34,794 nucleotides of DNA, from contig CAZXBL010000005.1 of assembly GCA_964638875.1 (NCBI GenBank), positions 1 to 34,794 on the forward strand, read 5' to 3'. Every line of letters begins with the position of its first letter. The first letter of the stretch is position 1. Below, piece after piece: positions 2,466-32,780 of the stretch. A program made the translations under genes and the position numbers. Under the pieces are notes generated by a model, which was given only the letters and a program-made list of their open reading frames with translations, had not been told where the DNA came from and made no database searches. The DNA is from an uncultured Candidatus Saccharibacteria bacterium (GTDB lineage: Bacteria; Patescibacteriota; Saccharimonadia; Saccharimonadales; JALRHH01).

Positions 2466-3515
2466 ATGGAAAGTTCTGACAGTAGCAGCCCAAATATAGG
2501 CCCACAGGTCGTTGAAGTTACGCAGGATCAGTACGCTGCAGCGCTTTCGATGGTAAGAGGCCTTGGACGGATTAACCCTGACTCATTCGCTGATGATCTT
2601 CGGTGGCAGATGGGTGAAAGAGATTCCCAAACGGGTGAAATTATTACTCCCTCGGACACAGTGACAAGCCCAGACCAAGCAGCGGCGATTATCGAAAACC
2701 TGCAAGGCAGGGGCATGCTCTCAGCAGAGACCGATGACGAGGGTCTACTTAGTTGGGCAGGCATGCCTCCTCGTGAAGAGGGCGAGTCAGGCGAGGCGGT
2801 AGAATCACCTGGACGGTTGAATCGATTAGCCAAAAAAGCAGGGAAAGTTATGCACCAGGCGGTCACACAAGCCGCTGAAGACATAGCAAAACAGTCTAGC
2901 GAATTTGCCGGCTACAACACAGTGAGTTCGGTGATAATGCGCGGACCTCGTGCTAAGGAAGCTTCGGCGAGTGCTGAGGCAGCTAAGAAAAACGAGAAAA
3001 GATTGAACCTTGAAGAGTTCGAGCAAGAACATAGCCGAAGAAGTAAGTTGCATATCACAGAGGTTGAGCACCCAGTCCAAGGAGCAAGGAGACGAGGTGA
3101 GCGTCGTCCTTCTATACAACCAGCTGCTCCTAATCCCGGTCGGCTCACAGATGCACGCACCAGTGCAAGCCCACCAGCAAGAACAGATACCCCAGGGCAT
3201 AGCCCACGAGATAAAGGCTTAAATGCCCCTTCAGAAAGAGCTCGTGAAGAAGCACGTCTTGTGCAACAGGCCCCCGAAACAGAACAAAAGCCTGACGGTG
3301 ATATACCGTCCATGGAGGAGATCCATTTTGAGATCAACCAACGAATTGGTAGAGCCAAACGGGAGGGCAGACCTGAGACATTTACAGAACTTGATAAAAG
3401 AATAAAGGTAGAGGTCTTTAATGAACTGGTTGAGAAACTTCCTAGTTCAAAGAGGGACAGCTTTAGAGCAGCTTTTCTTGCGGAGTTCTCAGATAATACA
3501 CCGCGTGCAACGTAG
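2466..3515 (+). CDS. Hypothetical highly charged, Pro/Glu/Arg-rich, probably disordered protein inside the T4SS-like gene block
   Basis: This is the longest ORF in the region and lies on the same strand as its neighbours. It has no TM segment or signal peptide and is compositionally biased (EEGESGEAVESPGR, RRGERRPSIQPAAPNPGR). Several shadow ORFs overlap it in other frames, as expected for biased composition. Confidence 0.55.
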   Translation: MESSDSSSPNIGPQVVEVTQDQYAAALSMVRGLGRINPDSFADDLRWQMGERDSQTGEIITPSDTVTSPDQAAAIIENLQGRGMLSAETDDEGLLSWAGMPPREEGESGEAVESPGRLNRLAKKAGKVMHQAVTQAAEDIAKQSSEFAGYNTVSSVIMRGPRAKEASASAEAAKKNEKRLNLEEFEQEHSRRSKLHITEVEHPVQGARRRGERRPSIQPAAPNPGRLTDARTSASPPARTDTPGHSPRDKGLNAPSERAREEARLVQQAPETEQKPDGDIPSMEEIHFEINQRIGRAKREGRPETFTELDKRIKVEVFNELVEKLPSSKRDSFRAAFLAEFSDNTPRAT

Positions 3516-3639: not shown

Positions 3640-4602
3640 ATGGGCACATATAAGGTTATTCAGGATATTGAAGCAGAAGACACCATTATTGGGTGGATGA
3701 CCCCGAGACAGGCAGTTTATGCTGCTATCGTTATTGTTTCTGGGTTTATCTGGTTCATGCTTGCATCGAACGGGGCATGGTGGCTTGGTCTAGTCTTATT
3801 GCCACATATGATCCTCTTTTCCGTACTAGCAGGGCCTTTTGTGCACGATCAACCATCTGAGGTGTGGTTGCTTGCCAAAATTAAGTTTTTTCTGAAACCG
3901 CGTCGGCGTATATGGGATCAGTCCGGCATCAAAGAACTGGTAACTATCACTGTGCCAAAGCGAATTGAGAAGCACTTGACCGATGGGTTAACTCAGAATG
4001 AGGTCAAGAGTCGTTTGAGCGCGCTCGCCAACACAATCGACAGTCGCGGTTGGGCAGTCAAGAATGTGAACATGAACCTCTATGCACAGCCTGCATATGC
4101 AACCACCAGTTCTGATAGGCTTGTCGATCACAGCACCATGCCTCAACCAGTGCCAGATTACGATGTGTACGCTAGTGACGATATCCTTGACGCCACTAGC
4201 AATCCAGTGGCACAGCAGGTGCACCAGATGGTTACACAGTCTACGCAGGCGCACCGTCAGCAGGTAGTAGCACGAATGCAGCAACCATCTCAGGCTACTC
4301 CCCAACAACAATCCCCCCCATGGTTCGTAGACCCTGCAGCTCAGACGAATACAACAGTTAACGACCAAACTGATGTTCAACTAAACCAGCAGATCAAACA
4401 AAGCCGCCAGCAGGCAGCCCAGCAACACAGGCCTGGTGTATCACCTTCATCCGGGCAACTTCAGCATGCACGAGCACAGCAGCCCGTTGATCGTGCAGTG
4501 GTAAGCCAGCTAGCGCGAAACAATGACCTAAATGTTTCCACAATTGCCCGTCAAGCAAATAAATCCGACGATGATAATGAGGTAGTTGTCAGCCTACGAT
4601 AA
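3640..4602 (+). CDS. PrgI-family (VirB3-like) T4SS membrane protein with a long Q-rich C-terminal extension
   Basis: The N-terminus (YKVIQDIEAEDTIIGWMTPRQAVYAAIVIVSGFIWFML..WWLGLVLLPHMILFSVLAG..EVWLLAKIKFFLKPRRRIW) has the two-helix hairpin layout typical of PrgI-family proteins. Such proteins sit directly upstream of VirB4 genes in Gram-positive T4SS loci. About 180 aa of Gln-rich low complexity follows. Confidence 0.65.
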   Translation: MGTYKVIQDIEAEDTIIGWMTPRQAVYAAIVIVSGFIWFMLASNGAWWLGLVLLPHMILFSVLAGPFVHDQPSEVWLLAKIKFFLKPRRRIWDQSGIKELVTITVPKRIEKHLTDGLTQNEVKSRLSALANTIDSRGWAVKNVNMNLYAQPAYATTSSDRLVDHSTMPQPVPDYDVYASDDILDATSNPVAQQVHQMVTQSTQAHRQQVVARMQQPSQATPQQQSPPWFVDPAAQTNTTVNDQTDVQLNQQIKQSRQQAAQQHRPGVSPSSGQLQHARAQQPVDRAVVSQLARNNDLNVSTIARQANKSDDDNEVVVSLR

Positions 4603-4731: not shown

Positions 4732-5703
4732 GTGAGACAGGTGGGACAGCAAACATCCATGGATCCAAACACACAAAATCCGCAGTACCAGCCGGCAGCT
4801 CCTGCTGTGCCTAACGCTGCACCGCAGTCTTACGCCCAAGGTAATGTGCAGCAAGCATACCAGCAAACCCCGCCGCCTCAGTACGCCCCACAACCAGGGT
4901 ATGGACAGGTGTCGGCCCCTGGTGTTGTAGTCGGTAGTGCACCCCAAACCCAACCGAACATGCCAGCACCCAAGAGCAACCCAAACAGCACACAAAATAC
5001 ATTGCAGATCGCAGAGATTAGGGACGGTATCGTTATTATGAACGACGGCTCTTTCCGCTGCGTAGTAATGGTTAAGTCAATCAATTTTGATTTAATGAGC
5101 CCTCAGGAGCGTGAGGCAGTTGAGTTCAGTTATCAGGGTTTTTTGAATTCTCTATATTTTGATATACAAATATTTTTGCGTTCGCAAAAAGTTGATATTG
5201 CCCCGTACATCAACCGTCTCGATAAAATTCGTTCCGAACACGACAACATGTTGTTAGCGTTATTGATGGAAGACTACATTGGCTACATCGCTGATATTGC
5301 ACAGCACACTAATATTATGGACAAAAAGTTTTACGTGGTAATTCCGTTTAACCCGGTACCAGACATTAAACAACTTGGCGCGCAGAGCAAGAATTTCTTT
5401 ACTGGACTTGCTGGAGTCTTTAAGCCTAAAGAGCAACATGTCACGATCAACGAGGCCGACCTAGAAAAAGCCAAGGATGAACTACGCAACCGGGTACAGG
5501 CTGTGCTCGGCGGTTTACAGCAGTGCGGCATACAAGGTCTTCCCCTCGATACACAAGAGTTGATAGAACTGTACTACGATACCTACAATCCGGACACTGC
5601 GACGCGTCAGCAGCTAAAGAACTTGGATGATTTAACCGCACCTGTCATTACCAAAGGTCAGGGCATGGCACCTCAGCCTAATCTTGATAGGGAGATCCAG
5701 TAA
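4732..5703 (+). CDS. N-terminal domain of a VirB4/PrgJ/ConE-type T4SS ATPase encoded as a separate ORF, preceded by a P/Q-rich region
   Basis: After about 90 aa of P/Q-rich sequence comes LQIAEIRDGIVIMNDGSFRCVVMVKSINFDLMSPQEREAVEFSYQGFLNSLYFDIQIFLRSQKVDIAPYINRL. This is the pattern seen at the N-terminus of Gram-positive VirB4 homologues. The stop overlaps the next ATG (TAATG at 5701-5705). The start is uncertain: GTG 4732 or ATG 4759. Confidence 0.65.
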   Translation: MRQVGQQTSMDPNTQNPQYQPAAPAVPNAAPQSYAQGNVQQAYQQTPPPQYAPQPGYGQVSAPGVVVGSAPQTQPNMPAPKSNPNSTQNTLQIAEIRDGIVIMNDGSFRCVVMVKSINFDLMSPQEREAVEFSYQGFLNSLYFDIQIFLRSQKVDIAPYINRLDKIRSEHDNMLLALLMEDYIGYIADIAQHTNIMDKKFYVVIPFNPVPDIKQLGAQSKNFFTGLAGVFKPKEQHVTINEADLEKAKDELRNRVQAVLGGLQQCGIQGLPLDTQELIELYYDTYNPDTATRQQLKNLDDLTAPVITKGQGMAPQPNLDREIQ

Positions 5704-7610
5704 TGGCACGCAAGAAACAGCAACTCGACCCAGTTGCCCTTGCTCAGGCACAACAGCTGCGTGAGCAGCAAGAAGTTCAGGCAGCGTTTCAAAAGGGTGT
5801 CACCGCGCTTCGTGATTTTATTGCACCTAGTTCATTAGAGTTTTTTGCCACCCATTTCCAACTAGGTACTCGATTTGCACGTACCTATTATGTGTACGGG
5901 TACCCTAGGCAGATCTACACTGGTTGGTTAAGCAACATGGTTAACCTCGATGAGGTTATGGACCTGTCAATGTTTATCTACCCTGTAGAAAGCCAGGTTG
6001 TCCTAGAAAACTTGCGCAAGAAAGTCACACAGCTGGAGGCTGGACTACAGATCGACTCAGAAAAAGGTCGTGTTCGTGACCCGGGCAAACAAGCGGCGAT
6101 TCTCGATGCGGAAGAGATGCGCGATAAGCTACAGGTTGGGGAGGAACGCTTTTTCCGCTTCGGCCTATATTTCACCATCTATGGTGGCACCATGGACGAG
6201 CTAGAATTTGTGGCCCATAAGGTTGAGTCAATGCTTGGGCAGCAACTGGTGTACAGTAAACCGGCTACTAGCCAACAAGAGCAAGCGCTGAACAGCACTA
6301 TCCCACAACTGACCGATCAACTACAAATACGACGAAACTTGAATACCGGGGCACTTAGTACGAGTTTCCCATTCACAAGCGCAGACCTGACCCAGGACGA
6401 CGGTATTTTATACGGTATTAACATGCATAACTCTGGTTTAGTTATCTTTGACCGGTTTAGCCTGGAGAATAGTAATTCAGTCGTCTTTGCAAAGTCTGGT
6501 GCCGGTAAGTCGTTTGCCGTAAAGCTGGAAGCGCTCCGATACATGATGATGGGTACCGAAATATTTATTGTCGACCCAGAGAACGAATATCAACGTATGT
6601 GTGAAGCAGTTGGCGGTGCCTATGTTCGGCTTAGTCTAACCTCGCCAACACGTATCAACCCGTTTGACCTACCCCAGGTTGTCGATACAGACGAAGCCGA
6701 TAACGCACTGACGAGCAACCTCCTAACTTTACACGGGCTACTACGCCTCATGATGGGCGGTGCCCAGGCGTCAATGGCAAACAGTGGGGGACCATCTTTG
6801 CCGGCGCTCGCGCCAAGTGAAGAGGCCGATCTTGATGCTGCTCTTATCGAGACGTACGCTAAGGCTGGCATCACCCAGGACCCCTTAACCCACGGGAGTA
6901 CACCACCGACCATCGGTGACCTGTACGACACCTTGTTACACATGGGGGGGACAGGTCCTCAACTAGCACAACGACTACGTAAATACACCACGGGCACATT
7001 CGCAGGTATTTTCAGCCAGCAGAGCAACATCGATATTAATAACCCTTTGGTCGTGTTTAACATTCGTGATCTGGAAGATGAGTTGCGCCCGGTGGCTATG
7101 TACATTGTTCTGAACTTTATCTGGAATAAGACTAAGAGCGATCAAAAGAAGCGTCTTCTTATTGTTGACGAGGCTTGGCAGTTGATGAAATACGAAGATT
7201 CCGCAAACTTCCTGTTTAGTCTTGCTAAGCGTGCCCGTAAATATAACCTTGGCATTACCACCATTACTCAAGACGTAGAAGACTTTATGGGCTCCCGAAT
7301 GGGTCGTGCGATTGTCAGCAATGCGTCCATGCAACTTCTGCTTAAACAATCACCAGCAGCAGTTGACGTTTTATCAGATGTTTTCAAGTTAACGAGCGAG
7401 GAGAAGAAACGCCTTAGTCAATTCCCCGTTGGGCAAGGGTTGTTCTTCGCTGGACAAAACCACGTTCATATTCAAATTGCAGCAAGCGCAACTGAGGCGA
7501 GTCTTATTACTACTAACCCAGACCAAGTCAAGGCTATCGAACAACAAGGGGAAATGTACAATACTGGTGGAACCATCGATCTGAATAACCGCCTACATCC
7601 GGGGGTGTAA
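5703..7610 (+). CDS. virB4: VirB4-like T4SS ATPase (central and C-terminal ATPase part)
   Basis: Walker A is VFAKSGAGKSFAVKLE (about nt 6490-6516). Walker B is RLLIVDEAWQLM (about nt 7155-7185). Additional matches include YYVYGYPRQIYTGWLSNMV, ITTITQDVEDF and QLLLKQS. The length and order fit the VirB4/TraC/TrbE family. Confidence 0.9.
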   Translation: MARKKQQLDPVALAQAQQLREQQEVQAAFQKGVTALRDFIAPSSLEFFATHFQLGTRFARTYYVYGYPRQIYTGWLSNMVNLDEVMDLSMFIYPVESQVVLENLRKKVTQLEAGLQIDSEKGRVRDPGKQAAILDAEEMRDKLQVGEERFFRFGLYFTIYGGTMDELEFVAHKVESMLGQQLVYSKPATSQQEQALNSTIPQLTDQLQIRRNLNTGALSTSFPFTSADLTQDDGILYGINMHNSGLVIFDRFSLENSNSVVFAKSGAGKSFAVKLEALRYMMMGTEIFIVDPENEYQRMCEAVGGAYVRLSLTSPTRINPFDLPQVVDTDEADNALTSNLLTLHGLLRLMMGGAQASMANSGGPSLPALAPSEEADLDAALIETYAKAGITQDPLTHGSTPPTIGDLYDTLLHMGGTGPQLAQRLRKYTTGTFAGIFSQQSNIDINNPLVVFNIRDLEDELRPVAMYIVLNFIWNKTKSDQKKRLLIVDEAWQLMKYEDSANFLFSLAKRARKYNLGITTITQDVEDFMGSRMGRAIVSNASMQLLLKQSPAAVDVLSDVFKLTSEEKKRLSQFPVGQGLFFAGQNHVHIQIAASATEASLITTNPDQVKAIEQQGEMYNTGGTIDLNNRLHPGV

Positions 7611-7695
7611 TGCACACCCTTTCTGCAATTAATAGCAGGCGTGCTGGATTCCACTTTCTAGTACATAACCGGTATAATGATCTTTAAGAGGATTT

Positions 7696-10600
7696 TTGGT
7701 GTCACCAGCAAAACGAAAAGACGAAACTGCACAGGAGTCCATTAAACCGGACTTTCTTGATGGCATCGACATTAGCCGCGAAGAAGCGGAGGAAATGGAG
7801 AACAATGCTTTCAATGGTGCTGCACGAGACATCGCTGACAAAGAAGCTCTTTCGAATACTGAGATAGCGAACGCCGAGACAGCTGGCGGACCAGGTGTTT
7901 CGACCGAAGGTGACAAGGCAGAGAGCGACAAAGTTGACGGCTTATATAACTCCAAAGATAAGGGAAAGAATCGCGGCCGCTTTAGTTCACTGTTAAGCAG
8001 TAGACGCAACAAGTTGATTGCTGGAGGAGTCGGTGGTGGAGGCGTAATCGGACTGGGCTTGCTTGGTTTGCTTTTCTTACCGCTTGGACCCAAGCACATG
8101 GTGACGAATCTCCAGCAGACATTTTTCGCCAACAGCGAAGAAGCTGCAGAGAAGGCAACAAATCGTTTATTATCTAGCTATATTATTTACAAAGTAATGC
8201 CTGGCCTTAGTGGCACCTGTCCGTCAACGAAAGCAAACAAAAGTTGTGCCAAGGTTAGCCAAGATGACAATATCGTTACACAATTGTATCGCTCTTGGAG
8301 GGATCAGAACCTAGAAGGCAAGATGTATGAAAAGCACGGAATTGAAATACGCCGTGAAGGTAATACCATGGTCATGCGCAGTGATCGGCTGCAAGAAGAT
8401 ATATTTAGAGGCGACTATAACGGCGGGAATGACGCAGAATTCGAACGCAAATTCTTCACAACGATGGACCGAAAAGAAGTTCGCAAGCAGATGCTTAACT
8501 CCATAGAGAACGAGACGTTTTACAAGCGTATGATGTACCGCTATAAATACGGCAGGTTAATGGAACGGAAATACGGAGTGGTCAGGTGCCTTATCGCCTG
8601 TGACTATCGCCAAGACAAGGCGGATCGTAAGGAACTCCGCAAAATGAAAATGAAAGCATGGGTTATACATCGAGTCGTTGGTCCGTTAAACGAAGGTTAC
8701 GGTATGGCGTTTGAGTGTGCTGTTGCTCAGTTCGATTGTGCTGCGGAGCATAACAATACTGTGGACGAGGACGGTACAAAGAAGACAAAGTTCGAAAACG
8801 ACCTAAGGGATAAGACAAAAGAGATTATTGGCGATGGGCGCATGACCCAAGAACGACTTGCGAAATTACAGACAGACGCCGGTGAAATCAGAGAGAACGG
8901 TATGGCAAACTTCCTACTGAAGAAGATCTTAGGTGAGGCGGGTGGTAAACTCGTTGGTAATGTAGTTCCTGGGCTTGGGTTAGCCGACGCTTTAGCCAAA
9001 CTGGTTGAAGGGGTAACTAAAGCAGGACCAGCAATAAAAACGATGCAGTACGCTATGGCAAGTGGGGCGGCAGTCAATGTCTGGACAATGTACCAGGCGA
9101 ATGCCAGTGAAGTAAATTCCGGAAATATTAATGTAGAAGAGCTGGGGTATGTTGCCGACTCTCTCGGTGATAACTTTGGTAAGGATCAAGGTGGCGGTGG
9201 GGCAGGATCAACTCCTTACTACCAAGACATCATGGGCAGCCAGGGTGTCTCCACGGCCTCCCTGTTCCCTAAGGCAGAGGCAGCTTCTCCCTTCAAGTGT
9301 GATGATGGGTCGTATATCACCACTGGTCTATGCCCGGAAATGAGCGTGTCTGCTGCCACCGGTGGTGCCGAAGCTGTGAAATCCTTCAGTGATTTTTTAA
9401 GGAAGTATCACCTCGATTCGATTGCTGCTATATGGAACTCTAGTATTGGAAAAATTTTCGATGCACTCAACAACCTTATTGGTATATTCACTGATCTTGC
9501 AGGTGATCTTGCAGGTGCACTAACACCTGATGCCATAAAAGATAAACTTGCAGATCTTGCCAAAGCAATAGGTGAATGGTTTACCGAGAAGCTCTTCGTT
9601 AGCTTCATAACAGACGATACCAGTGGTGGCAGGATGTTCGAGGCAGCCGCACTTGGTGCAAACATCGCTGGAAACGACTTTGCGCACTATGGGCTTGGGG
9701 CAGGCAAAATATCCGACCAGGCAGCAAACAGAGTTCGTTACGCCCGTGCCGTAGAGCAAAAGCAAGAGTTTATGGAGAAGTCGATGTTTGCGCGCATATT
9801 TGATACATCTAGCAGCTACTCTACCGCTTCTCAATTGGCTCTTGCTATGCCGTCAGGGGCAAGTTCAACAGCTCACTCTCTTTCATCAACACTTTTGAAT
9901 CCGGTAAGTATGATTTCATCAACACTGACTGGTTCTAGGAAGGTTAATGCCGCTCCTAAAGAAAACCTCGATTTGGCCGGAGTGACACAGTATGGATACG
10001 CAGAAAATGATCCAATCTTCAGTGTAACCGACTATGAAAAGTGGTGGACAGATAGCAATTGTGACGATGAGTCAGTGGTAACTGCTTGGGGTGAATCTGC
10101 AACGATGAGTAGTAAGAACGGCTCATTCGAGAATGACCAACCAAATCGCTGTAAGCTCATTGAAGCGATGTCTACTAGTAACTGTGGCTACACGAATGAC
10201 GAGTGTCTTACTCCAGAGGAGCTCGGTGATCAAGTAAATTCATATGGTGAAAACACTAATGGTGGTGTGGCACTACGTGCAGCATCATTTAACATTTTGC
10301 ACTCTCCTGATGGTAATGTAGAGGCTCGTTTGCGGAAATCTATCGACACGCTGCTTAACCCGCCCGGTGGTGGTGAACAGGTTGACGTTGTTGGGCTTCA
10401 GGAGGTCCGAAAGGACCAACTAGCTATGCTAAAGGCAAGTAACTTTGGCCAACAGTATAATATGTTCCCCAACACGCCAAACAACCGAGAGTATGAGCCG
10501 AACATAGTTGCTTGGCGAAAAGATAAATACACCGTCATAAAGGAAGCAACGATGAATGCTAGGTACTTCTTTGGAAATCCGGAGCAAATGCCAGTTGTAA

Positions 10601-11547
10601 AACTAAAAGAAAATTCAACAGATCGTGTACTCTATTTTGCCAGCATCCACAATCCCCGGTCTGGTGGAGATCCGTTTAGGGGTAATAATGAAGGTGTTCG
10701 TGACGATAACGCGCGTTTGTTCCAAGAATACTTTGCAAACCTTAAACAACAGGAGCCTGACACGCCGATGATCCTTGTAGGTGATTTTAACGCAGGCTAC
10801 CAGGCGGCCGATAAGCTTGAAGATGTGCCATATGGACGAAGATCATTTTGCATCCTAACTAATGGCATTTTCTGGGATGCGTGGCATGCATCGAAGAAAA
10901 TTGATGGCAAGTGTCCTAAACGAAGTACGGTTAATTTCATCGACCATATCTTTATTGATCGAGACACGCAGGTATCCAAGTTCTTTACTGCCCCACGGGG
11001 CATAGATAAAAATGGGTCAGACCACCCGACAATCTTTGCGGACCTAACTGGCCCTGATCTTACGGGAAGTGATGGTTGGTCATGGCCACTGAAATCAAGC
11101 GTCACCAGTGGCCCGTGCTATGGTGTGGAAGTTAAGGATCTCGGTAAGCATGCTGGCATGGATATGAATACATCGAAGGGTGACAACCCCGTGCTAGCAA
11201 TACACTCTGGTAAAGTCGTAAGGGTAGGCGCAGATCCGTACGCAGGAAACTACATCACAATTCTTGCTGACGCCCCGTTCAACAACAAACGTGTCTACTA
11301 TTCATACGAGCACCTAAAGTCAGGCACTATAAAATTCGCCGAAGGCGACCGTGTATTGGGCGGTGAGAAGGTGGCTATTGCGGGAACATCGGGCAGATTC
11401 TTTGGATCGTCATTAGGTCATTTGCATATCGTCACCGCTACAACAAATAGCCTGGGTGGGTATGGCAGCCTCGGAACTACATTTAACCCGATGGATGTAT
11501 TGAAAAACGCAGGGCCTGCTCCGGAAGGTTACAAGTGCACGCAGTAA
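7696..11547 (+). CDS. 1283-aa bitopic T4SS-associated multi-domain protein: cytoplasmic charged N-terminus, one TM, about 700-aa unknown ectodomain, EEP (endonuclease/exonuclease/phosphatase) domain, C-terminal M23 peptidase
   Basis: The TM segment is GGVGGGGVIGLGLLGLLFLPLG. EEP motifs are RAASFNILHS, VVGLQEV, ILVGDFNAGY and NGSDHPTIFADL (about nt 10270-11045). M23 motifs are HAGMDM (HxxxD) and GHLHIV (HxH) (about nt 11090-11470). TATAAT lies at 7673-7678 and AAGAGGA lies upstream of the TTG 7696 / GTG 7699 start. Confidence 0.85.
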   Translation: MVSPAKRKDETAQESIKPDFLDGIDISREEAEEMENNAFNGAARDIADKEALSNTEIANAETAGGPGVSTEGDKAESDKVDGLYNSKDKGKNRGRFSSLLSSRRNKLIAGGVGGGGVIGLGLLGLLFLPLGPKHMVTNLQQTFFANSEEAAEKATNRLLSSYIIYKVMPGLSGTCPSTKANKSCAKVSQDDNIVTQLYRSWRDQNLEGKMYEKHGIEIRREGNTMVMRSDRLQEDIFRGDYNGGNDAEFERKFFTTMDRKEVRKQMLNSIENETFYKRMMYRYKYGRLMERKYGVVRCLIACDYRQDKADRKELRKMKMKAWVIHRVVGPLNEGYGMAFECAVAQFDCAAEHNNTVDEDGTKKTKFENDLRDKTKEIIGDGRMTQERLAKLQTDAGEIRENGMANFLLKKILGEAGGKLVGNVVPGLGLADALAKLVEGVTKAGPAIKTMQYAMASGAAVNVWTMYQANASEVNSGNINVEELGYVADSLGDNFGKDQGGGGAGSTPYYQDIMGSQGVSTASLFPKAEAASPFKCDDGSYITTGLCPEMSVSAATGGAEAVKSFSDFLRKYHLDSIAAIWNSSIGKIFDALNNLIGIFTDLAGDLAGALTPDAIKDKLADLAKAIGEWFTEKLFVSFITDDTSGGRMFEAAALGANIAGNDFAHYGLGAGKISDQAANRVRYARAVEQKQEFMEKSMFARIFDTSSSYSTASQLALAMPSGASSTAHSLSSTLLNPVSMISSTLTGSRKVNAAPKENLDLAGVTQYGYAENDPIFSVTDYEKWWTDSNCDDESVVTAWGESATMSSKNGSFENDQPNRCKLIEAMSTSNCGYTNDECLTPEELGDQVNSYGENTNGGVALRAASFNILHSPDGNVEARLRKSIDTLLNPPGGGEQVDVVGLQEVRKDQLAMLKASNFGQQYNMFPNTPNNREYEPNIVAWRKDKYTVIKEATMNARYFFGNPEQMPVVKLKENSTDRVLYFASIHNPRSGGDPFRGNNEGVRDDNARLFQEYFANLKQQEPDTPMILVGDFNAGYQAADKLEDVPYGRRSFCILTNGIFWDAWHASKKIDGKCPKRSTVNFIDHIFIDRDTQVSKFFTAPRGIDKNGSDHPTIFADLTGPDLTGSDGWSWPLKSSVTSGPCYGVEVKDLGKHAGMDMNTSKGDNPVLAIHSGKVVRVGADPYAGNYITILADAPFNNKRVYYSYEHLKSGTIKFAEGDRVLGGEKVAIAGTSGRFFGSSLGHLHIVTATTNSLGGYGSLGTTFNPMDVLKNAGPAPEGYKCTQ

Positions 11548-13739
11548 TGAGTTTGTTACAAAATTATTATAAACGCTTTGTAAAAACCATGCGGCTGGCC
11601 CTGATAGGGGCCTTGGTTATCAGCGTCTCTATACCCCAAGCAGTATACGCATTACCGCAATCAGAAAAAGAACAAATCGATGAAAACTCTGTCGACTACG
11701 TTAAGGGAGGGGTATGTGCGCCCGCAGACTCGTCTGCCAGCGCTACCGGCGGAACAGTTGGCAGCTACACAAATCCCGTGTACGACGGAGTGGGTCAAGG
11801 CCCTACGGTCATATTGGGCGATGATGGCATATATCATGTCTATCTCACTAGCGATGACAAAAACCCCTTTAAGCATTTAAAGTCAAAGAACCTCGTGGAC
11901 TGGGACCTGGTGTCGCGGGACACAATATCAAACCTCAACGATATTCCAAAAGATCTACGCAATGTAATGTGGGCGCCCGATGTTGCCAAGACTGGCGATC
12001 ACTATACTATGGTGTTTACTGGCGGCTCTAAGGGGGGCAACGAAGGCGTGAGGTATATTGGCTACGCCACTAGCAATGATGCCGCCGGGCCTTTTAAGTA
12101 TCGTGGGCGTCTCACAGAACCTCAAGATCCAGGCGGCCGCGTACTGGACCCGCACTTATTTCTCGAAGGCGATAAAATATATGTAACGCATGGGTCATCT
12201 CCGATCGCGATATCAGAGATAAATATGCAGACAGACGGAAAGATGTCGATTGTCGGATCGAGTAAAGAGTTGGTGCTCCGTGGCACCTGGGCAGGACATC
12301 CATCAACCATCGAACAATCTTGGCTGCATAAGATTGGTGGGTGGTACTACATGTTTTATTCGGCTGGGCACTATAGGGATCGTGATGGCCACCAAGAATA
12401 TTCAGTTCGCGTTGCAAGATCTAAAAATCTAATGGGACCCTACAATCCCGAGGATCACTCAAGGATTGTGCTTCAAAGCAAAGATCCATTCGATGCTCCT
12501 GGGGCATCCACAATTATCCAAGACGGCTCTGGCACTTACTGGATGATATATAACGCCTTTAAGGGAGGTGAACGGCGGTTGATGCTAGATAAACTGAACT
12601 TTGAGAATGGTTGGCCAGTTGCAAATAATGGATATCCTTCGTCGACAAAACAAGACGGTGGTGGCGACTCGGGTGATGCCCCAGCCAGGGCAAGCATCGA
12701 CGCCTGCTGCGCCACCTCAGGTGCCGACATTTCGGATCCCACAGCAAACACCACAGGTGCTCAAGGATCAACTGCTAAAGAGGTTTTTGTATTTCTGATT
12801 GGCAAAGGTTTGACCGCGAAGCAAGCCGCTGGAATAGTAGGTAACCTTATGTCGGAGTCCGGGGTAGGGAAAACAAAGTTTGATCTTGACCCTAAGGTCA
12901 CAAACGGAATAGGTGCCTATGGTATCGCCCAGTGGTTATACGAGCGTAAGACGGCCTTACAGAAAAAAGCTAATTATGACACACTGCAAGTACAAATGGA
13001 CTTCATGTGGCACGAACTAACCACGGGTTATAAAGCCAGCACCTTAACACCGATTAAAGCCAGCACGGAATATATAGGTCCGAACGGTTCAGTACGTATA
13101 TTCCTTGAGAACTACGAGATTCCCTGTACAGCCGGATCCGACTGTGACAGCTTTTATAACACCAGAAAGGGCTATGCAGACCAAGCATACGCCGCTTTCA
13201 AAGATCTTGGACCAGATGATGTAGGTAGTACATTAGGTGGTGGTTGCAGTGGAAGTAGTGATGCGTATATTGACGCAAGTGGCTTCGCCTGGCCCCTCGT
13301 AATGCCAAAAAATAAAATATCAAATGGCTGTCCTTGGCCTACCCGTACTTCCCCCCCTTATTGTCACCACGATGGCACTCCCGCGTTTGACCTATTCGCA
13401 CCCGTTGGGACAAAAGCGGTTGCAATAACTGACGGTACTATCGACAGCATAAATCCTTATCGTAGCACCGGTTGTCAATCTATTCAGTTCAAGAGTAATG
13501 ACGGCTGGTACTACTGGTACGGACACACTAGAACGGATAGCGAGACTCCGGCTATTGGTGCTCCGTTAAAAGCTGGTGACTATATATCCAAGGTTGGAGA
13601 AAGTGTGTGTGCCTTAAATACTTCTCCCCACCTCCACATTGACAGAGGATTCCCTAAGGGGACGCGAGGAGGGGACGACCCTAGCCGTGATCCTGATTTC
13701 CTCAAGATTATGAACGAACTGTATAAGAACATGGAGTAG
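11547..13739 (+). CDS. Secreted triple hydrolase: GH43 beta-propeller + phage-tail-type lysozyme domain + M23-like metallopeptidase
   Basis: The signal peptide is MRLALIGALVISVSIPQAVYA. GH43 blocks are NPVYDG..GPTVILGDDGIYHVY, WAPDV, VLDPHLFLEGDKIYV, EQSWLHKIGGWYYMFYSAG and RRLMLDKLNFENGWPV. The lysozyme block is AAGIVGNLMSESG...YGIAQW. The M23-like block is PAFDLFAPVGTKAVAITDGTI...SPHLHID. The preferred start is ATG 11547, overlapping the upstream TAA. GTG 11535 and ATG 11589 are alternatives. Confidence 0.85.
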   Translation: MSLLQNYYKRFVKTMRLALIGALVISVSIPQAVYALPQSEKEQIDENSVDYVKGGVCAPADSSASATGGTVGSYTNPVYDGVGQGPTVILGDDGIYHVYLTSDDKNPFKHLKSKNLVDWDLVSRDTISNLNDIPKDLRNVMWAPDVAKTGDHYTMVFTGGSKGGNEGVRYIGYATSNDAAGPFKYRGRLTEPQDPGGRVLDPHLFLEGDKIYVTHGSSPIAISEINMQTDGKMSIVGSSKELVLRGTWAGHPSTIEQSWLHKIGGWYYMFYSAGHYRDRDGHQEYSVRVARSKNLMGPYNPEDHSRIVLQSKDPFDAPGASTIIQDGSGTYWMIYNAFKGGERRLMLDKLNFENGWPVANNGYPSSTKQDGGGDSGDAPARASIDACCATSGADISDPTANTTGAQGSTAKEVFVFLIGKGLTAKQAAGIVGNLMSESGVGKTKFDLDPKVTNGIGAYGIAQWLYERKTALQKKANYDTLQVQMDFMWHELTTGYKASTLTPIKASTEYIGPNGSVRIFLENYEIPCTAGSDCDSFYNTRKGYADQAYAAFKDLGPDDVGSTLGGGCSGSSDAYIDASGFAWPLVMPKNKISNGCPWPTRTSPPYCHHDGTPAFDLFAPVGTKAVAITDGTIDSINPYRSTGCQSIQFKSNDGWYYWYGHTRTDSETPAIGAPLKAGDYISKVGESVCALNTSPHLHIDRGFPKGTRGGDDPSRDPDFLKIMNELYKNME

Positions 13740-16593: not shown

Positions 16594-17685
16594 CTAGGAT
16601 TTCAGCGGCATAATAACGTGTAGATAGTCGTTACTGGCAGGGTCGGCCAAAACACACGGTTCCAGCTTGCCGTTAAAGGAAACTTGCACGTCTTCACCAC
16701 CAAGGGCATGTAACGCATCCAGAATATAACGTGAATTAAGCGTGATCACACCTTCGTTGGCGATCTGTGCTGCCGCACTAGCGGTGTTCTCACCAATTTG
16801 TGAGGCTATTGAACGAATACTAACCTGTTGTGCTTCGGCGTCGAGGTTCAGTGTCACACTGCCGGCACTTTCGCGGGCGAACAAACTCGATACCTTGGTA
16901 ATATTTGTGAGTTCAGACTTCTTGAGCGTCGCGTCGCTAGCAAAAGAGCGCGGGATGAGCTTACGGTAGTCTGGGTACTTACCTTCGATAAGTCGTGCCA
17001 CCAACTCTACGTCACCAACTGTAAACAGGACTTGTTGATCATCATGTGTCACAACGACGTCTTCTTCAAAGTCGCCAAGGATACGGAGCAAGTCAGCAAG
17101 CGCACTCGCTGGGATTAGCAGATCAACATCCTTATCAATACTAATGAGAGATTTTTCTGCTAGACGATAACTGTCAGTTGCGACGATATATAGTTTTCCT
17201 TCGTGTGTGTGCCAGTAGACACCGGTCAGAACCGGGCGGGCTTCGTCGCTTGATGCTGCAACTACTACTTGCTGGAGTGATTGTTTCAGTAGCTTTCCGG
17301 GGATCTTCCAGCTTGTGCCGTTTGTGATGGCAGGCATGACAGGGTAGTCTTCTGCGGAAATACCATTAATAGTTGAATTATATTTGTCGGCTTTAATGTG
17401 CAGCTTGTACTCGTCTAATTTCAATTCAATAACTCCACCCGGAAGACTACTCACAAAATCCTGCATAAGCCGCGCAGGGACGGTTATAGCGCCTTCTGCA
17501 CTTACTTTAGAACCAATGTAGTGGGTGATTGCAATATCAAGGTTGGTTGCTGCAATACTGAGCCTGCCATCTACTGTCTTTAAGAGCACGTTTGAAAGAA
17601 TTGGTAAGGTCCCTCTACTATTAGCAACACGTGCTACGCTGCTGAGTGCTTTGCTGAGATTTTCTTGTGTGACTTGGAGCTTCAT
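16594..17685 (-). CDS. dnaN: DNA polymerase III beta sliding clamp
   Basis: MKLQVTQENLSKALSSVARVANSRGTLPILSNVLLK is a typical clamp N-terminus. The length from ATG 17685 is 363 aa. The 74 codons upstream in the ORF track run through DnaA-box-containing intergenic DNA and are not clamp-like. Confidence 0.93.
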   Translation of the reverse strand: MKLQVTQENLSKALSSVARVANSRGTLPILSNVLLKTVDGRLSIAATNLDIAITHYIGSKVSAEGAITVPARLMQDFVSSLPGGVIELKLDEYKLHIKADKYNSTINGISAEDYPVMPAITNGTSWKIPGKLLKQSLQQVVVAASSDEARPVLTGVYWHTHEGKLYIVATDSYRLAEKSLISIDKDVDLLIPASALADLLRILGDFEEDVVVTHDDQQVLFTVGDVELVARLIEGKYPDYRKLIPRSFASDATLKKSELTNITKVSSLFARESAGSVTLNLDAEAQQVSIRSIASQIGENTASAAAQIANEGVITLNSRYILDALHALGGEDVQVSFNGKLEPCVLADPASNDYLHVIMPLKS

Positions 17686-17960
17686 TCTGTGTTCCTGTAT
17701 ACCTATATATTTAATTAGTAGTAGTGTTAGTAAGCACTGTGGATTGTGTGTACAAGCGGTTGATAACAGAGGTAAAATTACCCACAGGGGCTGTGTAGTT
17801 CCGCACACAAAATGTGTACAACCCACGTGAAAGTCGGGGAGTTTTCCATACGTATTTTGCAGATAAAACTTTGCTGTGCAGAACCCCGATACTTTGCCCA
17901 CAGGCATCAGTGGCTTTTCCTACGGCTTCTACACAGGTCTTCCACATGGTCACAAAATCA
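17686..17960. promoter_or_regulatory. dnaA-dnaN intergenic origin module: DnaA-box-like 9-mers plus an AT-rich stretch
   Basis: TTACCCACA lies at 17778-17786 and TTTTCCATA at 17842-17850. TTGCCCACA lies at 17894-17902 and TCTTCCACA at 17938-17946. TGTGGATTG (reverse CAATCCACA) lies at 17738-17746. An AT-rich run lies at 17701-17734 (acctatatatttaattagtagtagtgttagtaag). Confidence 0.55.
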
Positions 17961-26579: not shown

Positions 26580-26654
26580 TACAGTCACCCAACAGCTGTA
26601 TTGTGTAGACCCTTTCGCTGGTATATGCTTAAGCTAACTAATAAAGGACACCAC

Positions 26655-30272: not shown

Positions 30273-30336
30273 AGATATAGTTTACAGCAGCAGCAATCTT
30301 AATAAGAGGATACAATTAAATGAGTTTTTGACTGAA

Positions 30337-31209: not shown

Positions 31210-31307
31210 TATGTTTATCCTTTTAAATATATAGTCTTATATTAATCCAAACTTGATAAATATACACCATTGGATATCTTCATAACACAAGAGACTTCCA
31301 GGTGGAA

Positions 31308-31335
31308 ATGACAAAGCATGGCGTTTCAGTATAAA
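31308..31335 (+). promoter_or_regulatory. Sigma70-like promoter (ATGACA-16-TATAAA) upstream of the O-antigen-ligase-like gene
   Basis: ATGACA lies at 31308-31313 and TATAAA at 31330-31335. TTG 31340 would lie at or before the expected transcription start, which favours ATG 31349 on a short SD-less leader. Confidence 0.4.
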
Positions 31336-31348
31336 ATACTTGCAAACA

Positions 31349-32701: not shown

Positions 32702-32780
32702 TTTAGTAGCTAGCAGTACAGGCTGCTAACAGATCTGGTATAGTAGAGAGACAAGAATTTAAAGGGGAATGTATTCAATA

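What the first reader, a model, noticed from the sequence alone, without database searches (positions are those of the whole stretch)
7696..11547. T4SS 'hydrolase-slot' protein fusing an EEP nuclease/phosphatase domain to an M23 peptidase behind a 700-aa unknown ectodomain
Seen in sequence: one 1283-aa ORF carries a charged cytoplasmic N-terminus and a single Gly-rich TM. About 700 aa with no motif I can recognise follow. Next comes a complete EEP motif set (SFNILHS, GLQEV, GDFNAGY, GSDHPTIFADL), then an M23 domain (HAGMD, GHLHI).

Established: PrgK/TcpG-type T4SS hydrolases combine peptidoglycan-cleaving modules, including LytM/M23. The EEP fold covers DNase I-like and CdtB nucleases, sphingomyelinases/phospholipases C and phosphoinositide phosphatases.

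Inference: an EEP module tethered to a peptidoglycan cutter in a secretion apparatus suggests a second activity after wall penetration. That activity could be host DNA degradation for nucleotide scavenging, or attack on host membrane phospholipid. I know of no described T4SS hydrolase with this combination, but I cannot search for one here.
Basis: partly seen in the sequence, partly recalled or inferred. Interest (0 to 1): 0.72.

Follow-up and report, generated by a model that had tools for sequence, protein, structure and literature searches.

The report
Saccharibacteria T4SS protein with swappable enzyme heads
This is a real, conserved membrane-anchored protein of the secretion machine that tiny parasitic Saccharibacteria need to live on their hosts; its tip carries a phosphate-ester-cutting enzyme plus a cell-wall-cutting enzyme, and related bacteria swap in other enzymes, which suggests a tool kit matched to the host's envelope rather than a DNA-degrading device.

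Summary
ORF 7696-11547 (+) encodes a 1283-aa type-II membrane protein: charged cytoplasmic tail, one TM, a ~720-aa Cys-rich helical ectodomain, a complete EEP domain and a complete M23 domain. It directly follows virB4 in an oriC-proximal chromosomal T4SS of a Saccharimonadia genome.

The fusion is not an artefact. It recurs in relatives down to 32% identity, always in the same slot.

The main reframing is that the "unknown 700 aa" is the conserved core. It defines a family of at least 1196 clusters (50% identity). All 14 genome loci found are Saccharibacteria, and the gene always follows virB4. By position and architecture it corresponds to SEML1_0007, which is essential for epibiotic growth in Southlakia.

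The C-terminal heads are polymorphic: VanY, LAS-like, M23, CHAP, alginate lyase, beta-helix. Four unrelated phosphoesterase folds also occur: EEP, GDPD, PF04185 (PLC/acid phosphatase) and Y_phosphatase3.

EEP catalytic residues are invariant in 31 modules. The EEP groups with the Bacteroides mannosyl-6-phosphatase BT3783 and with actinobacterial secreted EEPs, not with DNase I, CdtB or sphingomyelinase.

Best reading: a T4SS-anchored envelope-breaching enzyme whose EEP cuts envelope phosphoesters. A nuclease role is disfavoured but not excluded. It is a new variant of a known kind.

The parts
7696..11547 (+). Whole ORF (1283 codons from TTG 7696; likely true start GTG 7699, giving 1282 aa): T4SS-associated single-pass membrane protein with EEP + M23 heads.
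   Evidence: (P0001 1282 aa, 100% identity)
7686..7692 (+). Shine-Dalgarno-like AAGAGGA, 6 nt upstream of GTG 7699. A TATAAT hexamer lies at 7673-7678 in the 85-nt virB4-ORF spacer.
   Evidence: read directly from the sequence
7696..8010 (+). Cytoplasmic N-terminal tail, residues 1-105: acidic (pI 4.7), low complexity, poorly conserved, ending in a basic cluster (+6 net, residues 90-106).
8014..8088 (+). Single Gly-rich transmembrane helix, residues ~107-131. It is the only Kyte-Doolittle window above 1.6.
8089..10245 (+). Conserved core ectodomain, residues ~132-850: mostly alpha-helical, 12 Cys (10 invariant among close relatives), no known fold or family. This region defines the family.
   Evidence: 1196 hits; pLDDT 54.5
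10282..11049 (+). EEP (Exo_endo_phos) phosphoesterase module, residues 863-1118. Catalytic set: N866, E903, H985, D1030, N1032, D1083, D1109, H1110. Conserved Cys pair 1052/1073.
11068..11544 (+). M23 (LytM/lysostaphin-type) metallopeptidase module, residues ~1125-1283. Zn/catalytic residues: H1152, D1156, H1206, H1242, H1244. Cys 1141/1281.
3640..4602 (+). PrgI/VirB3-like T4SS gene (context).
4732..5703 (+). TraC-like gene resembling the N-terminal region of VirB4 (context).
5703..7610 (+). VirB4-like ATPase (TraG P-loop / AAA_10), immediately upstream in every related locus.
11535..13739 (+). Second multi-domain hydrolase (GH43 + Phage_lysozyme2 + M23). It overlaps the ORF end by 13 nt and is the positional counterpart of SEML1_0006.

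Best explanation
This is the Saccharimonadia T4SS component that always follows virB4, the positional equivalent of the essential SEML1_0007 of Southlakia epibionticum.

**Proposed mechanism**
- A short cytoplasmic tail and one TM helix anchor the protein in the epibiont membrane beside the VirB4/VirB6 machinery.
- A ~720-aa disulfide-rich helical ectodomain, the conserved core, projects outward.
- At its tip it presents two active enzymes: a Mg2+-dependent EEP phosphoesterase and an M23 peptidoglycan endopeptidase.
- Together with the next gene (GH43 + lysozyme + M23), these heads locally dismantle cell envelope at the T4SS site, most likely the host's envelope at the attachment interface. 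This lets the pilus or channel pass and gives access to host material.
- The M23 head cuts peptide cross-links.
- The EEP head most likely hydrolyses a phosphoester of an envelope polymer or lipid rather than nucleic acid. Candidates are sugar-phosphate or glycerol-phosphate units of teichoic-acid-like polymers, the phosphodiester that links wall polysaccharide to peptidoglycan, or a phospholipid/lipoglycan head group.
- The heads are modular and are swapped between lineages, presumably tracking host envelope chemistry.

**What is shown**: the architecture, topology signals, synteny, conservation, catalytic-residue invariance, subfamily placement and head polymorphism.

**What is inferred**: enzymatic activity, the substrate class, host rather than self as the target, and the equivalence to SEML1_0007.
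For: **Architecture and topology**.

**The fusion is conserved**
- It recurs in 9 full-length relatives at 32-66% identity.
- It is present in a public NCBI Saccharibacteria MAG as a contig-end fragment.

**Same slot after virB4, beside recF-dnaN-dnaA**
- Contigs.
- 12 of 12 genome loci that have upstream DNA.
- All 14 genome loci are Saccharibacteria/Saccharimonadales MAGs.

**The core family is large**: 1196 representatives at E <= 1e-3 and 495 at E <= 1e-30, nearly all matching full length.

**The core evolves fast**: the N-domain is 28-35% identical where VirB4 is 80-92% and DnaA 78-83% identical in the same loci. This fits a surface or host-facing component.

**Orthologous slot in Southlakia**: SEML1_0007 (1113 aa, C-terminal DD-peptidase fold) and SEML1_0006 (lysozyme x2 + Cys protease) are essential in Tn-seq (PMC10633639; also noted in PMC12102498).

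**Catalytic residues**
- EEP: N, E, H, D, N and H are 31/31; D1083 is 30/31; D1109 is 28/31, across modules from representatives at most 50% identical.
- M23: Zn/catalytic residues are present here and in 20-26 of 27 modules.

**EEP subfamily**
- Profile against PDB: 3g6s 1.6e-28, BT3783 (4c1r/3mpr) 1e-26, next Nocturnin 9e-15. No DNase I, CdtB or SMase at E <= 1e-3.
- BT3783 is a Mg-dependent phosphatase acting on phosphorylated mannan or N-glycan (PMC4978465).
- The AF2 model (pLDDT 81.7) hits the same group first.

**Other phosphoesterase folds in the same slot**
- GDPD (P0015/P0159), PF04185 PLC/acid phosphatase (P0064) and Y_phosphatase3 (P0004), with the T4SS context confirmed.
- The GDPD member nests inside the main EEP clade of the N-domain tree. 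None of these folds is a nuclease fold.

**Glycan-active partners**: alginate lyase and beta-helix heads in relatives and GH43 in the next gene.

**Nearest stand-alone EEPs**
- They are actinobacterial (Nocardioides), and some are fused to ricin-B lectins.
- One lies ~1.4 kb from an LCP + GT2 + Glf + GlfT2 / Glyphos_transf wall-polymer cluster.
- Another lies beside GH43, LicD and PLD-like genes.

**EEP domain charge** is neutral (pI 7.1).
Against: - No activity was measured.
- Subfamily placement does not fix the substrate. EEP enzymes switch substrates easily, and the same profile also hits TDP2, CCR4 and ExoIII, which act on nucleic acids.
- Foldseek E-values are compressed (1e-14 to 1e-11, with sphingomyelinase at rank 49), so fold alone does not discriminate.
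- No solved structure of a MnuA/Xds/SpnA-type bacterial surface nuclease was seen among the hits, so PDB-based exclusion of nucleases is incomplete.
- The genomic associations of stand-alone EEPs with wall-polymer genes are anecdotal (3 loci) and concern proteins only ~27-33% identical.
- The window GH43 and the Nocardioides GH43 are not specifically related.
- Host versus self as the target is untested. Classical VirB1/PrgK hydrolases act on the producer's own wall.
- The N-domain model is poor (pLDDT 54.5), so its structural role is a guess.
- The equivalence to SEML1_0007 rests on position and architecture, not on a direct sequence comparison (one search found no accession link).
- The N-domain tree is a simple NJ tree without support values.
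Confidence: 0.5

Rival explanations
1. Nuclease for nucleotide scavenging. The EEP head is a surface-tethered DNase or RNase, like the Mycoplasma MnuA or Xds/ExeM/SpnA type. It degrades host or environmental nucleic acid once the wall is opened, feeding an organism that cannot make nucleotides.
For: - Saccharibacteria lack de novo nucleotide synthesis (PMC10633639).
- A 2026 preprint reports a patescibacterial parasite feeding on host RNA and sees T4SS-like tubes at the interface.
- The EEP fold includes many nucleases. The profile also matches TDP2, CCR4/CNOT6L, PDE12 and ExoIII at E 1e-11 to 1e-4.
- The catalytic set, with His at the DNase I H134-equivalent position, is compatible with nucleases.
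Against: - There is a 12-order-of-magnitude gap in favour of the BT3783/BVU_0621 phosphatase subgroup.
- DNase I and CdtB are absent at E <= 1e-3 and from the Foldseek top 50.
- ExeM/NucH scores 13.8 bits against a cutoff of 300.
- The domain is charge-neutral.
- The heads that replace or accompany it in the same slot (GDPD, PLC-type, PTP-like, lyases, peptidases) are envelope-directed, and none is a nuclease.
- The enzyme is tethered to the epibiont membrane, outside the host cytoplasm.
- In Southlakia a comEC deletion did not affect viability, so DNA uptake is not the essential nucleotide route.
Confidence: 0.17
2. Housekeeping VirB1/PrgK-like role on the producer's own wall. The heads only open the epibiont's own peptidoglycan and teichoic-acid layer so that the T4SS and pilus can assemble. 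Head polymorphism then reflects differences among Saccharibacteria walls, not among hosts.
For: - The gene is in the canonical hydrolase position of MPF_FATA-type T4SSs, and the protein is membrane-anchored like PrgK.
- Peptidoglycan-directed heads (VanY, LAS-like, M23, CHAP) dominate the family.
- About 25 of 156 members have no head at all, so the core can function without an enzyme.
Against: - Heads such as alginate lyase, beta-helix, PLC-type, GDPD and GH43 (next gene) have no obvious substrate in a minimal Saccharibacteria wall.
- The core diverges very fast relative to VirB4 and DnaA, which fits host interaction better than housekeeping.
- Some tail-less members may be truncated gene models.
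Confidence: 0.22
3. Membrane attack. The EEP head is a sphingomyelinase/phospholipase-C-like enzyme that hydrolyses host membrane phospholipid or lipoglycan head groups after the wall is breached.
For: - PF04185 PLC/acid-phosphatase, GDPD and Y_phosphatase3 heads occupy the same slot.
- B. cereus sphingomyelinase appears in the Foldseek list at 1.6e-11.
- From general knowledge, actinobacterial hosts carry phosphatidylinositol-based lipoglycans.
Against: - Sphingomyelinase/PLC-type EEPs are absent from the profile hits at E <= 1e-3.
- No hydrophobic membrane-insertion hairpin was identified.
- The nearest characterised relative acts on a soluble or polymeric glycan phosphate.
Confidence: 0.1
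4. Assembly or frameshift artefact: the EEP and M23 parts are separate genes that were wrongly joined.
For: None found.
Against: - The same continuous ORF architecture occurs in independent assemblies from JGI, Logan, ENA and NCBI, at 32-66% identity.
- 15 EEP+M23 cluster representatives were found.
Confidence: 0.01

Closest known systems
SEML1_0007 of Ca. Southlakia epibionticum ML1 (Wang et al. 2023, Cell; PMC10633639)
   Same: - It is the gene immediately downstream of virB4 in the oriC-proximal Saccharibacteria T4SS cluster.
- It is >1000 aa, with a long unannotated N-terminal region and a C-terminal peptidoglycan peptidase fold.
- It is followed by a multi-domain lysozyme gene.
- It is essential for epibiotic growth in Tn-seq.
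   Different: - SEML1_0007 carries a single Hedgehog/DD-peptidase (LAS/VanY-like) head and no EEP.
- The window protein carries EEP + M23.
- Equivalence is inferred from position and architecture. The two sequences were not compared directly.
PrgK (pCF10), TraG (pIP501), TcpG (pCW3), CwlT (ICEBs1): VirB1-like hydrolases of Gram-positive conjugative T4SSs
   Same: - They are encoded within an MPF_FATA-type T4SS cluster next to virB4.
- They are multi-domain peptidoglycan hydrolases. PrgK has an N-terminal TM anchor and a LytM/M23-like domain.
   Different: - Those proteins combine SLT/lysozyme and CHAP/NlpC modules.
- They have no ~720-aa conserved helical ectodomain and no phosphoesterase module.
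- They serve conjugation and act on the donor's own wall.
- In this system the lysozyme module is in the separate next gene, and no relaxase or coupling protein is known (PMC10633639, PMC12102498).
BT3783 (PDB 4C1R/3MPR) mannosyl-6-phosphatase and BVU_0621 (3G6S), Bacteroides EEP subgroup
   Same: - These are the best sequence-profile matches (E 1e-26 to 1e-28) and the top Foldseek matches.
- The alignment is collinear through all catalytic motifs.
- They are extracytoplasmic enzymes and share the Mg2+-binding residues.
   Different: - Identity is only ~17-21%.
- BT3783 is a free periplasmic enzyme of a mannan-utilisation locus.
- The module here has its own Cys pair and is fused to a T4SS protein.
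- Substrate identity cannot be transferred.
Polymorphic toxin / effector systems with modular C-terminal domains (Rhs, CDI CdiA, T6SS/T7SS effectors)
   Same: A conserved N-terminal delivery or scaffold region carries highly variable, swappable C-terminal enzymatic domains at a fixed locus. The heads include peptidoglycan hydrolases, phospholipase-type modules and phosphatases.
   Different: - No immunity gene was identified next to the heads.
- The scaffold is a membrane-anchored T4SS-cluster protein rather than a secreted toxin.
- The likely purpose is envelope breaching for parasitism, not killing of competitors. This last point is an inference.

Membership tests
EEP superfamily (Pfam PF03372 Exo_endo_phos) | Significant full-length match to the family model. 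| tested here: met
   E 1.5e-13, 51.4 bits against a cutoff of 24.5, model positions 1-225 of 225.
EEP superfamily (Pfam PF03372 Exo_endo_phos) | Catalytic and metal-binding residue set: N, E, H, D-x-N, D, D-H. | tested here: met
   N866, E903, H985, D1030, N1032, D1083, D1109, H1110. These are 28-31 of 31 conserved across family modules.
EEP superfamily (Pfam PF03372 Exo_endo_phos) | Four-layer alpha/beta sandwich fold. | tested here: met
   AF2 model pLDDT 81.7. Foldseek probability 1.00 to many EEP structures, TM (target-normalised) 0.6-0.77.
DNase I / CdtB-type nucleases | Specific sequence or profile similarity to DNase I/CdtB above other EEP subfamilies. | tested here: not met
   Absent from PDB profile hits at E <= 1e-3 and from the 60 best hits listed at E <= 1. 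Not in the Foldseek top 50.
DNase I / CdtB-type nucleases | DNA-contacting residues and nuclease activity. | not testable with these tools
   Needs superposition on DNA complexes and enzyme assays. The only related observation is a neutral net charge.
ExeM/NucH extracellular endonucleases (NCBIfam NF033681) | Score above the curated cutoff. | tested here: not met
   13.8 bits against a cutoff of 300; only a 44-residue stretch matched.
Neutral sphingomyelinase / PLC-type EEP | Specific similarity and a hydrophobic membrane-binding hairpin. | tested here: inconclusive
   Foldseek rank 49 (2uyr, 1.6e-11), but there is no profile hit at E <= 1e-3. The hairpin was not examined structurally.
BT3783/BVU_0621-like EEP subgroup (glycan phosphatase) | Closest sequence-profile relationship, collinear over all motifs. 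| tested here: met
   E 1.6e-28 (3g6s) and 1e-26 (4c1r/3mpr), against 9e-15 for the next family.
BT3783/BVU_0621-like EEP subgroup (glycan phosphatase) | Mg2+-dependent sugar-phosphate phosphatase activity. | not testable with these tools
   Activity is known only for BT3783 (PMC4978465).
Peptidase M23 (LytM/lysostaphin) | Family model match plus HxxxD, the catalytic His of the xYxH motif, and HxH. | tested here: met
   Pfam E 1.9e-11, 44.5 bits against a cutoff of 28.7. H1152/D1156, H1206 and H1242/H1244 are present. PDB profile hit to LytM at 2.8e-14.
VirB1/PrgK/TcpG-type T4SS cell-wall hydrolase | Encoded inside a T4SS cluster adjacent to virB4. | tested here: met
   12 of 12 loci.
VirB1/PrgK/TcpG-type T4SS cell-wall hydrolase | Carries a glycan-strand-cleaving module (SLT, lysozyme or glucosaminidase), with or without CHAP/NlpC. 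| tested here: not met
   There is no such module in this ORF. It is in the next gene, 11535-13739 (Phage_lysozyme2).
VirB1/PrgK/TcpG-type T4SS cell-wall hydrolase | Required for T4SS function. | not testable with these tools
   The only relevant data are the Tn-seq essentiality of the positional counterpart SEML1_0007.
Saccharimonadia post-virB4 core family (SEML1_0007-like) | Homologous ~720-aa ectodomain after a single N-terminal TM. | tested here: met
   Profile search: 1196 hits, nearly all full length. All genome loci are Saccharibacteria.
Saccharimonadia post-virB4 core family (SEML1_0007-like) | Direct sequence homology to SEML1_0007 itself. | not tested
P0087 (1113 aa, LAS-like head) has the same length and architecture, but no accession link was found.

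The most novel reading that the evidence does not exclude
The post-virB4 protein is the business end of the Saccharibacteria T4SS. It would be a conserved scaffold carrying interchangeable 'drill-bit' enzymes matched to the host envelope: peptidoglycan peptidases, polysaccharide lyases and four convergently recruited phosphoesterase folds. In that case the head repertoire would be a primary determinant of host range. The EEP, GDPD and PLC heads would sever phosphodiester-linked wall polymers or lipoglycan anchors to open a conduit for nutrient piracy. This would be a contact-dependent envelope-breaching function not described for any T4SS.
Probability: 0.3. Interest if true: 0.85.

Novelty: new variant of a known kind. 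Interest (0 to 1): 0.62.

Why it matters
The T4SS is essential for the epibiotic life of Saccharibacteria, yet its function is unknown. It has no relaxase and no coupling protein, and no effectors have been identified (PMC10633639, PMC12102498, PMC12857230).

This analysis shows that the large gene after virB4, annotated as 'hypothetical', is a family-wide core component. Its tip carries modular, rapidly exchanged enzymes, and phosphoesterases of four unrelated folds occur among them.

That turns a vague question (what does this T4SS do?) into concrete tests:
- Which envelope bonds do the heads cut?
- Do they act on host or self?
- Does swapping heads change host range?

It also flags a phosphoesterase activity that no T4SS wall hydrolase is known to have. 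And it gives a sequence handle, the core-domain profile, for cataloguing host-interaction repertoires in uncultured Saccharimonadia.

Tried and rejected
1. **N-domain identity.** Nothing was found in Pfam, NCBIfam, a PDB sequence-profile search (zero hits at E <= 10) or Foldseek on the AF2 model (best E 1.8). The model was poor (pLDDT 54.5, only 10 sequences).
2. **Single-sequence EEP searches.** These were nearly blind: PDB best E 0.88 and only 2 database hits. Profiles were needed.
3. **Linking the family to SEML1_0007 by accession.** Cluster metadata carried no names, and a paper search for the locus tag found nothing.
4. **EEP and GH43 co-inherited from Actinobacteria.** Rejected. The window GH43 and the Nocardioides GH43 next to an EEP are not specifically related (E ~0.03).
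5. **Artefact or frameshift.** Rejected on conservation.
6. **Mobile element or plasmid T4SS.** Rejected. The cluster is chromosomal, beside recF-dnaN-dnaA and rnpA-yidC-jag, in the window and in all long related contigs.
7. **The 2026 'feeds on host RNA' preprint.** It names no nuclease or EEP.
8. **The Mycosynbacter/Gordonia paper.** It gives host-envelope context only.
9. **One paper search** failed on syntax.

Full report
**1.

The + strand is open from 7696 to the stop at 11545-11547, 1283 codons. A Shine-Dalgarno-like AAGAGGA (7686-7692) lies 6 nt before GTG 7699. The database copy of the protein is 1282 aa, so GTG 7699 is the probable start.

The hydropathy profile has a single TM-grade segment, residues ~107-131. 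It is preceded by a +6 basic cluster and an acidic tail of ~105 aa. All 16 cysteines follow the TM, which points to an N-in/C-out type-II membrane protein with a disulfide-bonded ectodomain.

Pfam places a complete Exo_endo_phos domain at 863-1110 (E 1.5e-13, model 1-225 of 225) and Peptidase_M23 at 1151-1245 (E 1.9e-11). Both are well above the gathering scores. Residues ~132-850 match nothing in Pfam, NCBIfam or the PDB.

**2. Context**

Upstream lie a PrgI/VirB3-like gene (3640-4602), a TraC-like gene (4732-5703) and a VirB4-like ATPase (5703-7610). Downstream, overlapping by 13 nt, is a 734-aa protein with GH43, Phage_lysozyme2 and M23 domains (11535-13739). Then come two small unknown ORFs, recF-dnaN-dnaA on the minus strand, and rnpA-yidC-jag on the plus strand.

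The T4SS is therefore chromosomal and next to the replication origin. This is the arrangement described for Patescibacteria by Quinonero-Coronel et al. 2025 (PMC12102498).

A scan of species-representative genomes with the core-domain alignment returned 14 loci. All are Candidatus Saccharibacteria/Saccharimonadales MAGs, at ~30% identity. The window is thus from a Saccharimonadia genome whose close relatives are not among the representatives.

**3. The fusion is real**

A search of 5.8 billion proteins found nine full-length relatives at 32-66% identity. Eight carry an EEP detected by Pfam and seven carry M23. A family-specific HMM also finds a degenerate EEP in P0007, the member Pfam misses.

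The relatives whose contigs were retrieved (P0004, P0005, P0008, P0014) show the same gene order: TrbL_3/VirB6, unknown(s), PrgI, TraC-like, VirB4, this gene, a second hydrolase, recF-dnaN-dnaA. A public NCBI Saccharibacteria MAG (GCA_003537595.1) holds a contig-end fragment of such a protein, annotated 'hypothetical protein'. An assembly or frameshift artefact is excluded.

**4. The '700 aa of nothing' is the conserved core**

A profile of residues 125-850 was searched exhaustively against 1.84 billion cluster representatives. It hit 1196 proteins at E <= 1e-3 and 495 at E <= 1e-30. Nearly all match the whole profile from about residue 100-190 onward.

Protein lengths cluster near 850, 1050 and 1300 aa, consistent with a core plus zero, one or two C-terminal modules.

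In all 12 genome loci with upstream DNA, the core-domain gene directly follows virB4. In those same loci VirB4 is 80-92% and DnaA 78-83% identical to the window proteins. The core domain is only 28-35% identical. That rate contrast fits an exposed, host-facing component.

The AF2 model of the core is mostly helical but unreliable (pLDDT 54.5 from 10 sequences). It gives no fold match.

**5. Relation to the literature**

In Southlakia epibionticum ML1 the gene after virB4 (SEML1_0008) is SEML1_0007. It is 1113 aa, annotated 'hypothetical', and its only recognised part is a Hedgehog/DD-peptidase fold at 951-1105. The next gene, SEML1_0006, has two lysozyme-like domains and a cysteine protease. 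Both are essential in Tn-seq (Wang et al. 2023, PMC10633639, Tables S1/S2).

The window ORF and its neighbour are the positional and architectural counterparts. I could not compare sequences directly, so this equivalence is inferred. None of the papers I read mentions an EEP or any phosphoesterase in this slot.

**6. The heads are polymorphic**

I classified the tails of 156 family members with local HMMs, clustering and Pfam. The counts were:

| Head type | Members |
|---|---|
| VanY-type | 36 |
| LAS-like 'H..D..HxH' cluster with no Pfam hit | 34 |
| EEP-bearing | 27 |
| No tail | ~25 |
| Weak M23-like | ~12 |
| Clear M23 only | 10 |
| Beta-lactamase2 | 2 |
| GDPD (P0015) | 1 |
| PF04185 phosphoesterase, the PLC/acid-phosphatase family (P0064, E 8e-65) | 1 |
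| Beta-helix | 1 |

The 27 EEP-bearing members break down as:

| EEP architecture | Members |
|---|---|
| EEP + M23 | 15 |
| EEP x2 + M23 | 2 |
| EEP + CHAP | 6 |
| EEP x2 + CHAP | 2 |
| EEP + Y_phosphatase3 (P0004) | 1 |
| EEP + alginate lyase (P0010) | 1 |

The PLC-type, GDPD-type and EEP+CHAP variants were each confirmed to lie directly after virB4 in the same oriC-proximal cluster. None of the 12 species-representative loci has an EEP, so the EEP variants are a minority clade.

In an NJ tree of 153 core domains, 20 of 26 EEP-bearing proteins form one contiguous group that includes the window protein. Within that group the terminal module alternates between M23, CHAP, lyase and PTP-like. 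The GDPD protein nests inside it. A second small EEP+M23 group and one outlier suggest further shuffling. The tree has no support values.

**7. What kind of EEP?**

The catalytic residues are essentially invariant across 31 EEP modules from representatives at most 50% identical. N866, E903, H985, D1030, N1032 and H1110 are 31/31; D1083 is 30/31; D1109 is 28/31. The module is therefore almost certainly an active enzyme.

A family profile searched against all PDB sequences gives BVU_0621 (3g6s) at 1.6e-28 and BT3783 (4c1r and its apo form 3mpr) at 1e-26. After a 12-order-of-magnitude gap come Nocturnin (9e-15), TDP2 (1e-11), CCR4-type deadenylases and ExoIII (1e-6 to 1e-4). DNase I, CdtB and sphingomyelinase are absent at E <= 1e-3.

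BT3783 is a Mg2+-dependent phosphatase that removes phosphate from phosphorylated yeast mannan or N-glycan (Cuskin et al. 2015, PMC4978465).

The AF2 model of the C-terminal 433 residues is usable (pLDDT 81.7), and Foldseek ranks the same group first. The E-value spread is narrow (1e-14 to 1e-11, sphingomyelinase at rank 49), so the fold alone does not discriminate.

NCBIfam's ExeM/NucH extracellular nuclease model scores 13.8 bits against a cutoff of 300.

The nearest EEPs outside the family (E ~1e-50, 30-35% identity) are stand-alone proteins of 340-400 aa. All the named ones are from Nocardioides (Actinobacteria). Two are fused to ricin-B lectin domains.

Three genomic contexts were examined:
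- One EEP pair lies ~1.4 kb from an LCP ligase + GT2 + Glf + GlfT2 cluster, or from a Glyphos_transf cluster in a second contig.
- One lies beside a second EEP, a GH43, a LicD-family protein and a PLD-like protein.
- One is uninformative.

These are hints, not proof. The two GH43s are not specifically related.

**8. The M23 head**

H1152 and D1156 (HxxxD), H1206 (SYEHL) and H1242/H1244 (HLH) are all present. They are conserved in 20-26 of 27 family M23 modules. The best solved relatives are LytM, ShyA, lysostaphin and other M23 endopeptidases. This head is predicted to be an active peptidoglycan endopeptidase.

**9. Synthesis**

Shown:
- A Saccharimonadia-wide T4SS protein with a conserved core, carrying modular extracytoplasmic enzymes.
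- In this genome the heads are an active-looking EEP of the BT3783-like subgroup and an active-looking M23.

Inferred:
- The protein is anchored at the T4SS and presents its heads at the contact zone.
- The heads, together with the GH43-lysozyme-M23 neighbour, open the cell envelope.
- The EEP cuts an envelope phosphoester rather than nucleic acid.

The strongest argument for the last point is convergence. Four unrelated phosphoesterase folds (EEP, GDPD, PF04185, PTP-like) occupy the same slot. Apart from EEP none is a nuclease fold, and all have known envelope or lipid substrates: glycerophosphodiesters and teichoic acid, phospholipid head groups, phosphoinositides.

Whether the target is the host's envelope or the epibiont's own remains open. 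I favour the host because of two things: the non-peptidoglycan heads (alginate lyase, beta-helix, PLC-type, and GH43 next door), and the fast evolution of the core.

**10. Verdict**

Its interpretation is partly supported.
- The T4SS hydrolase-slot fusion and its apparent novelty stand.
- The DNase I/CdtB-style nuclease idea is disfavoured.
- The phospholipid idea survives only as one member of a broader 'envelope phosphoester' hypothesis.

This is a new variant of a known kind: T4SS-associated wall hydrolases, and the essential but uncharacterised SEML1_0007 family. It offers a testable handle on what the essential Saccharibacteria T4SS does.

Noticed in passing
window 11535-13739 (+): The next gene encodes a 734-aa protein combining GH43 (best PDB match 4qqs at 1.7e-14; arabinanase-like at ~1e-8), Phage_lysozyme2 and M23. 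It overlaps the ORF end by 13 nt. Relatives have other combinations in this second slot: lysozyme2+CHAP, Transglycosylase, lysozyme2+M23, lysozyme2+VldE, Beta-lactamase2. So the second slot is polymorphic too. A GH43 in a T4SS hydrolase is unusual.
   Followed up: partly
window 4732-5703 and 5703-7610 (+): VirB4 appears to be split. The 323-aa 'TraC-like' protein matches N-terminal regions of VirB4-family models (TrsD/TraD; VirB4_plasma positions 98-243). The abutting 635-aa gene carries the P-loop ATPase. The split is conserved in all related loci.
   Followed up: partly
window loci vs L001-L016: There is a strong rate heterogeneity within one gene cluster. VirB4 is 80-92%, TraC-like 65-81% and DnaA 78-83% identical across Saccharimonadia loci. 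The core domain of the post-virB4 protein is 28-35%, and PrgI is 34-56%.
   Followed up: partly
window 23116-25896 (+): A 926-aa protein has a Cutinase domain (residues 139-284, E 2.4e-21) and ~640 aa of unknown sequence. It is conserved at the same position in L001. Together with the arabinanase-like GH43, it may hint at a mycolic-acid-containing (Corynebacteriales) host, as for Ca. Mycosynbacter amalyticus. This is speculative.
   Followed up: no
window 13-1155 (+): The first listed ORF corresponds to the C-terminal part of the TrbL_3/VirB6-like gene of relatives (69% identity to L001 3078-3950). The VirB6-like gene therefore runs off the 5' end of the window. ORFs 1155-2411 and 2466-3515 have no family match but are syntenic T4SS-cluster genes.
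   Followed up: partly
window 16594-17907 (-): The dnaN ORF is listed as 437 aa, but DnaN domains start at residue 75 and relatives have 363-364 aa. In relatives a separate 81-95-aa ORF sits between dnaN and dnaA. The extension may be a start-codon listing effect or a fused small gene.
   Followed up: no
window 7673-7678 (+): A perfect TATAAT hexamer lies in the 85-nt spacer between virB4 and the ORF. It could be an internal promoter for the hydrolase genes.
   Followed up: no
window 25938-27329 (+): Two tandem PsbP-like (PsbP_2) proteins, 213 and 242 aa, are followed by two further small unknown proteins. They are probably secreted or lipoproteins of unknown role.
   Followed up: no
window 21967-22554 (+): A 195-aa protein with a PaaX central Cas2-like domain (E 4e-22) lies just after the rnpA-yidC-jag genes.
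   Followed up: no
window 29175-34714: A surface-polysaccharide gene cluster: a GT4 glycosyltransferase, a Big_7 Ig-domain protein, a Wzy_C/O-antigen-ligase-like membrane protein, GDP-mannose 4,6-dehydratase and an Ig/fn3-like protein.
   Followed up: no
L017/L018 (7078-7959), L022 (8001-9215), L023 (8001-9479): The closest stand-alone relatives of the EEP module are secreted actinobacterial (Nocardioides-type) proteins. They often occur in pairs, and some are fused to SpaA-like Ig or ricin-B lectin domains. One pair lies near LCP/Glf/GlfT2 or Glyphos_transf wall-polymer genes. Another lies beside GH43, LicD and PLD-like genes. Their function appears to be uncharacterised.
   Followed up: partly
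P0006, P0007 (relatives): Some family members have degenerate heads. P0007 has SPH instead of SDH in the last EEP motif, and Pfam misses its EEP. P0006 has YIASD instead of HxxxD in its M23. Not every head is necessarily catalytic.
   Followed up: no
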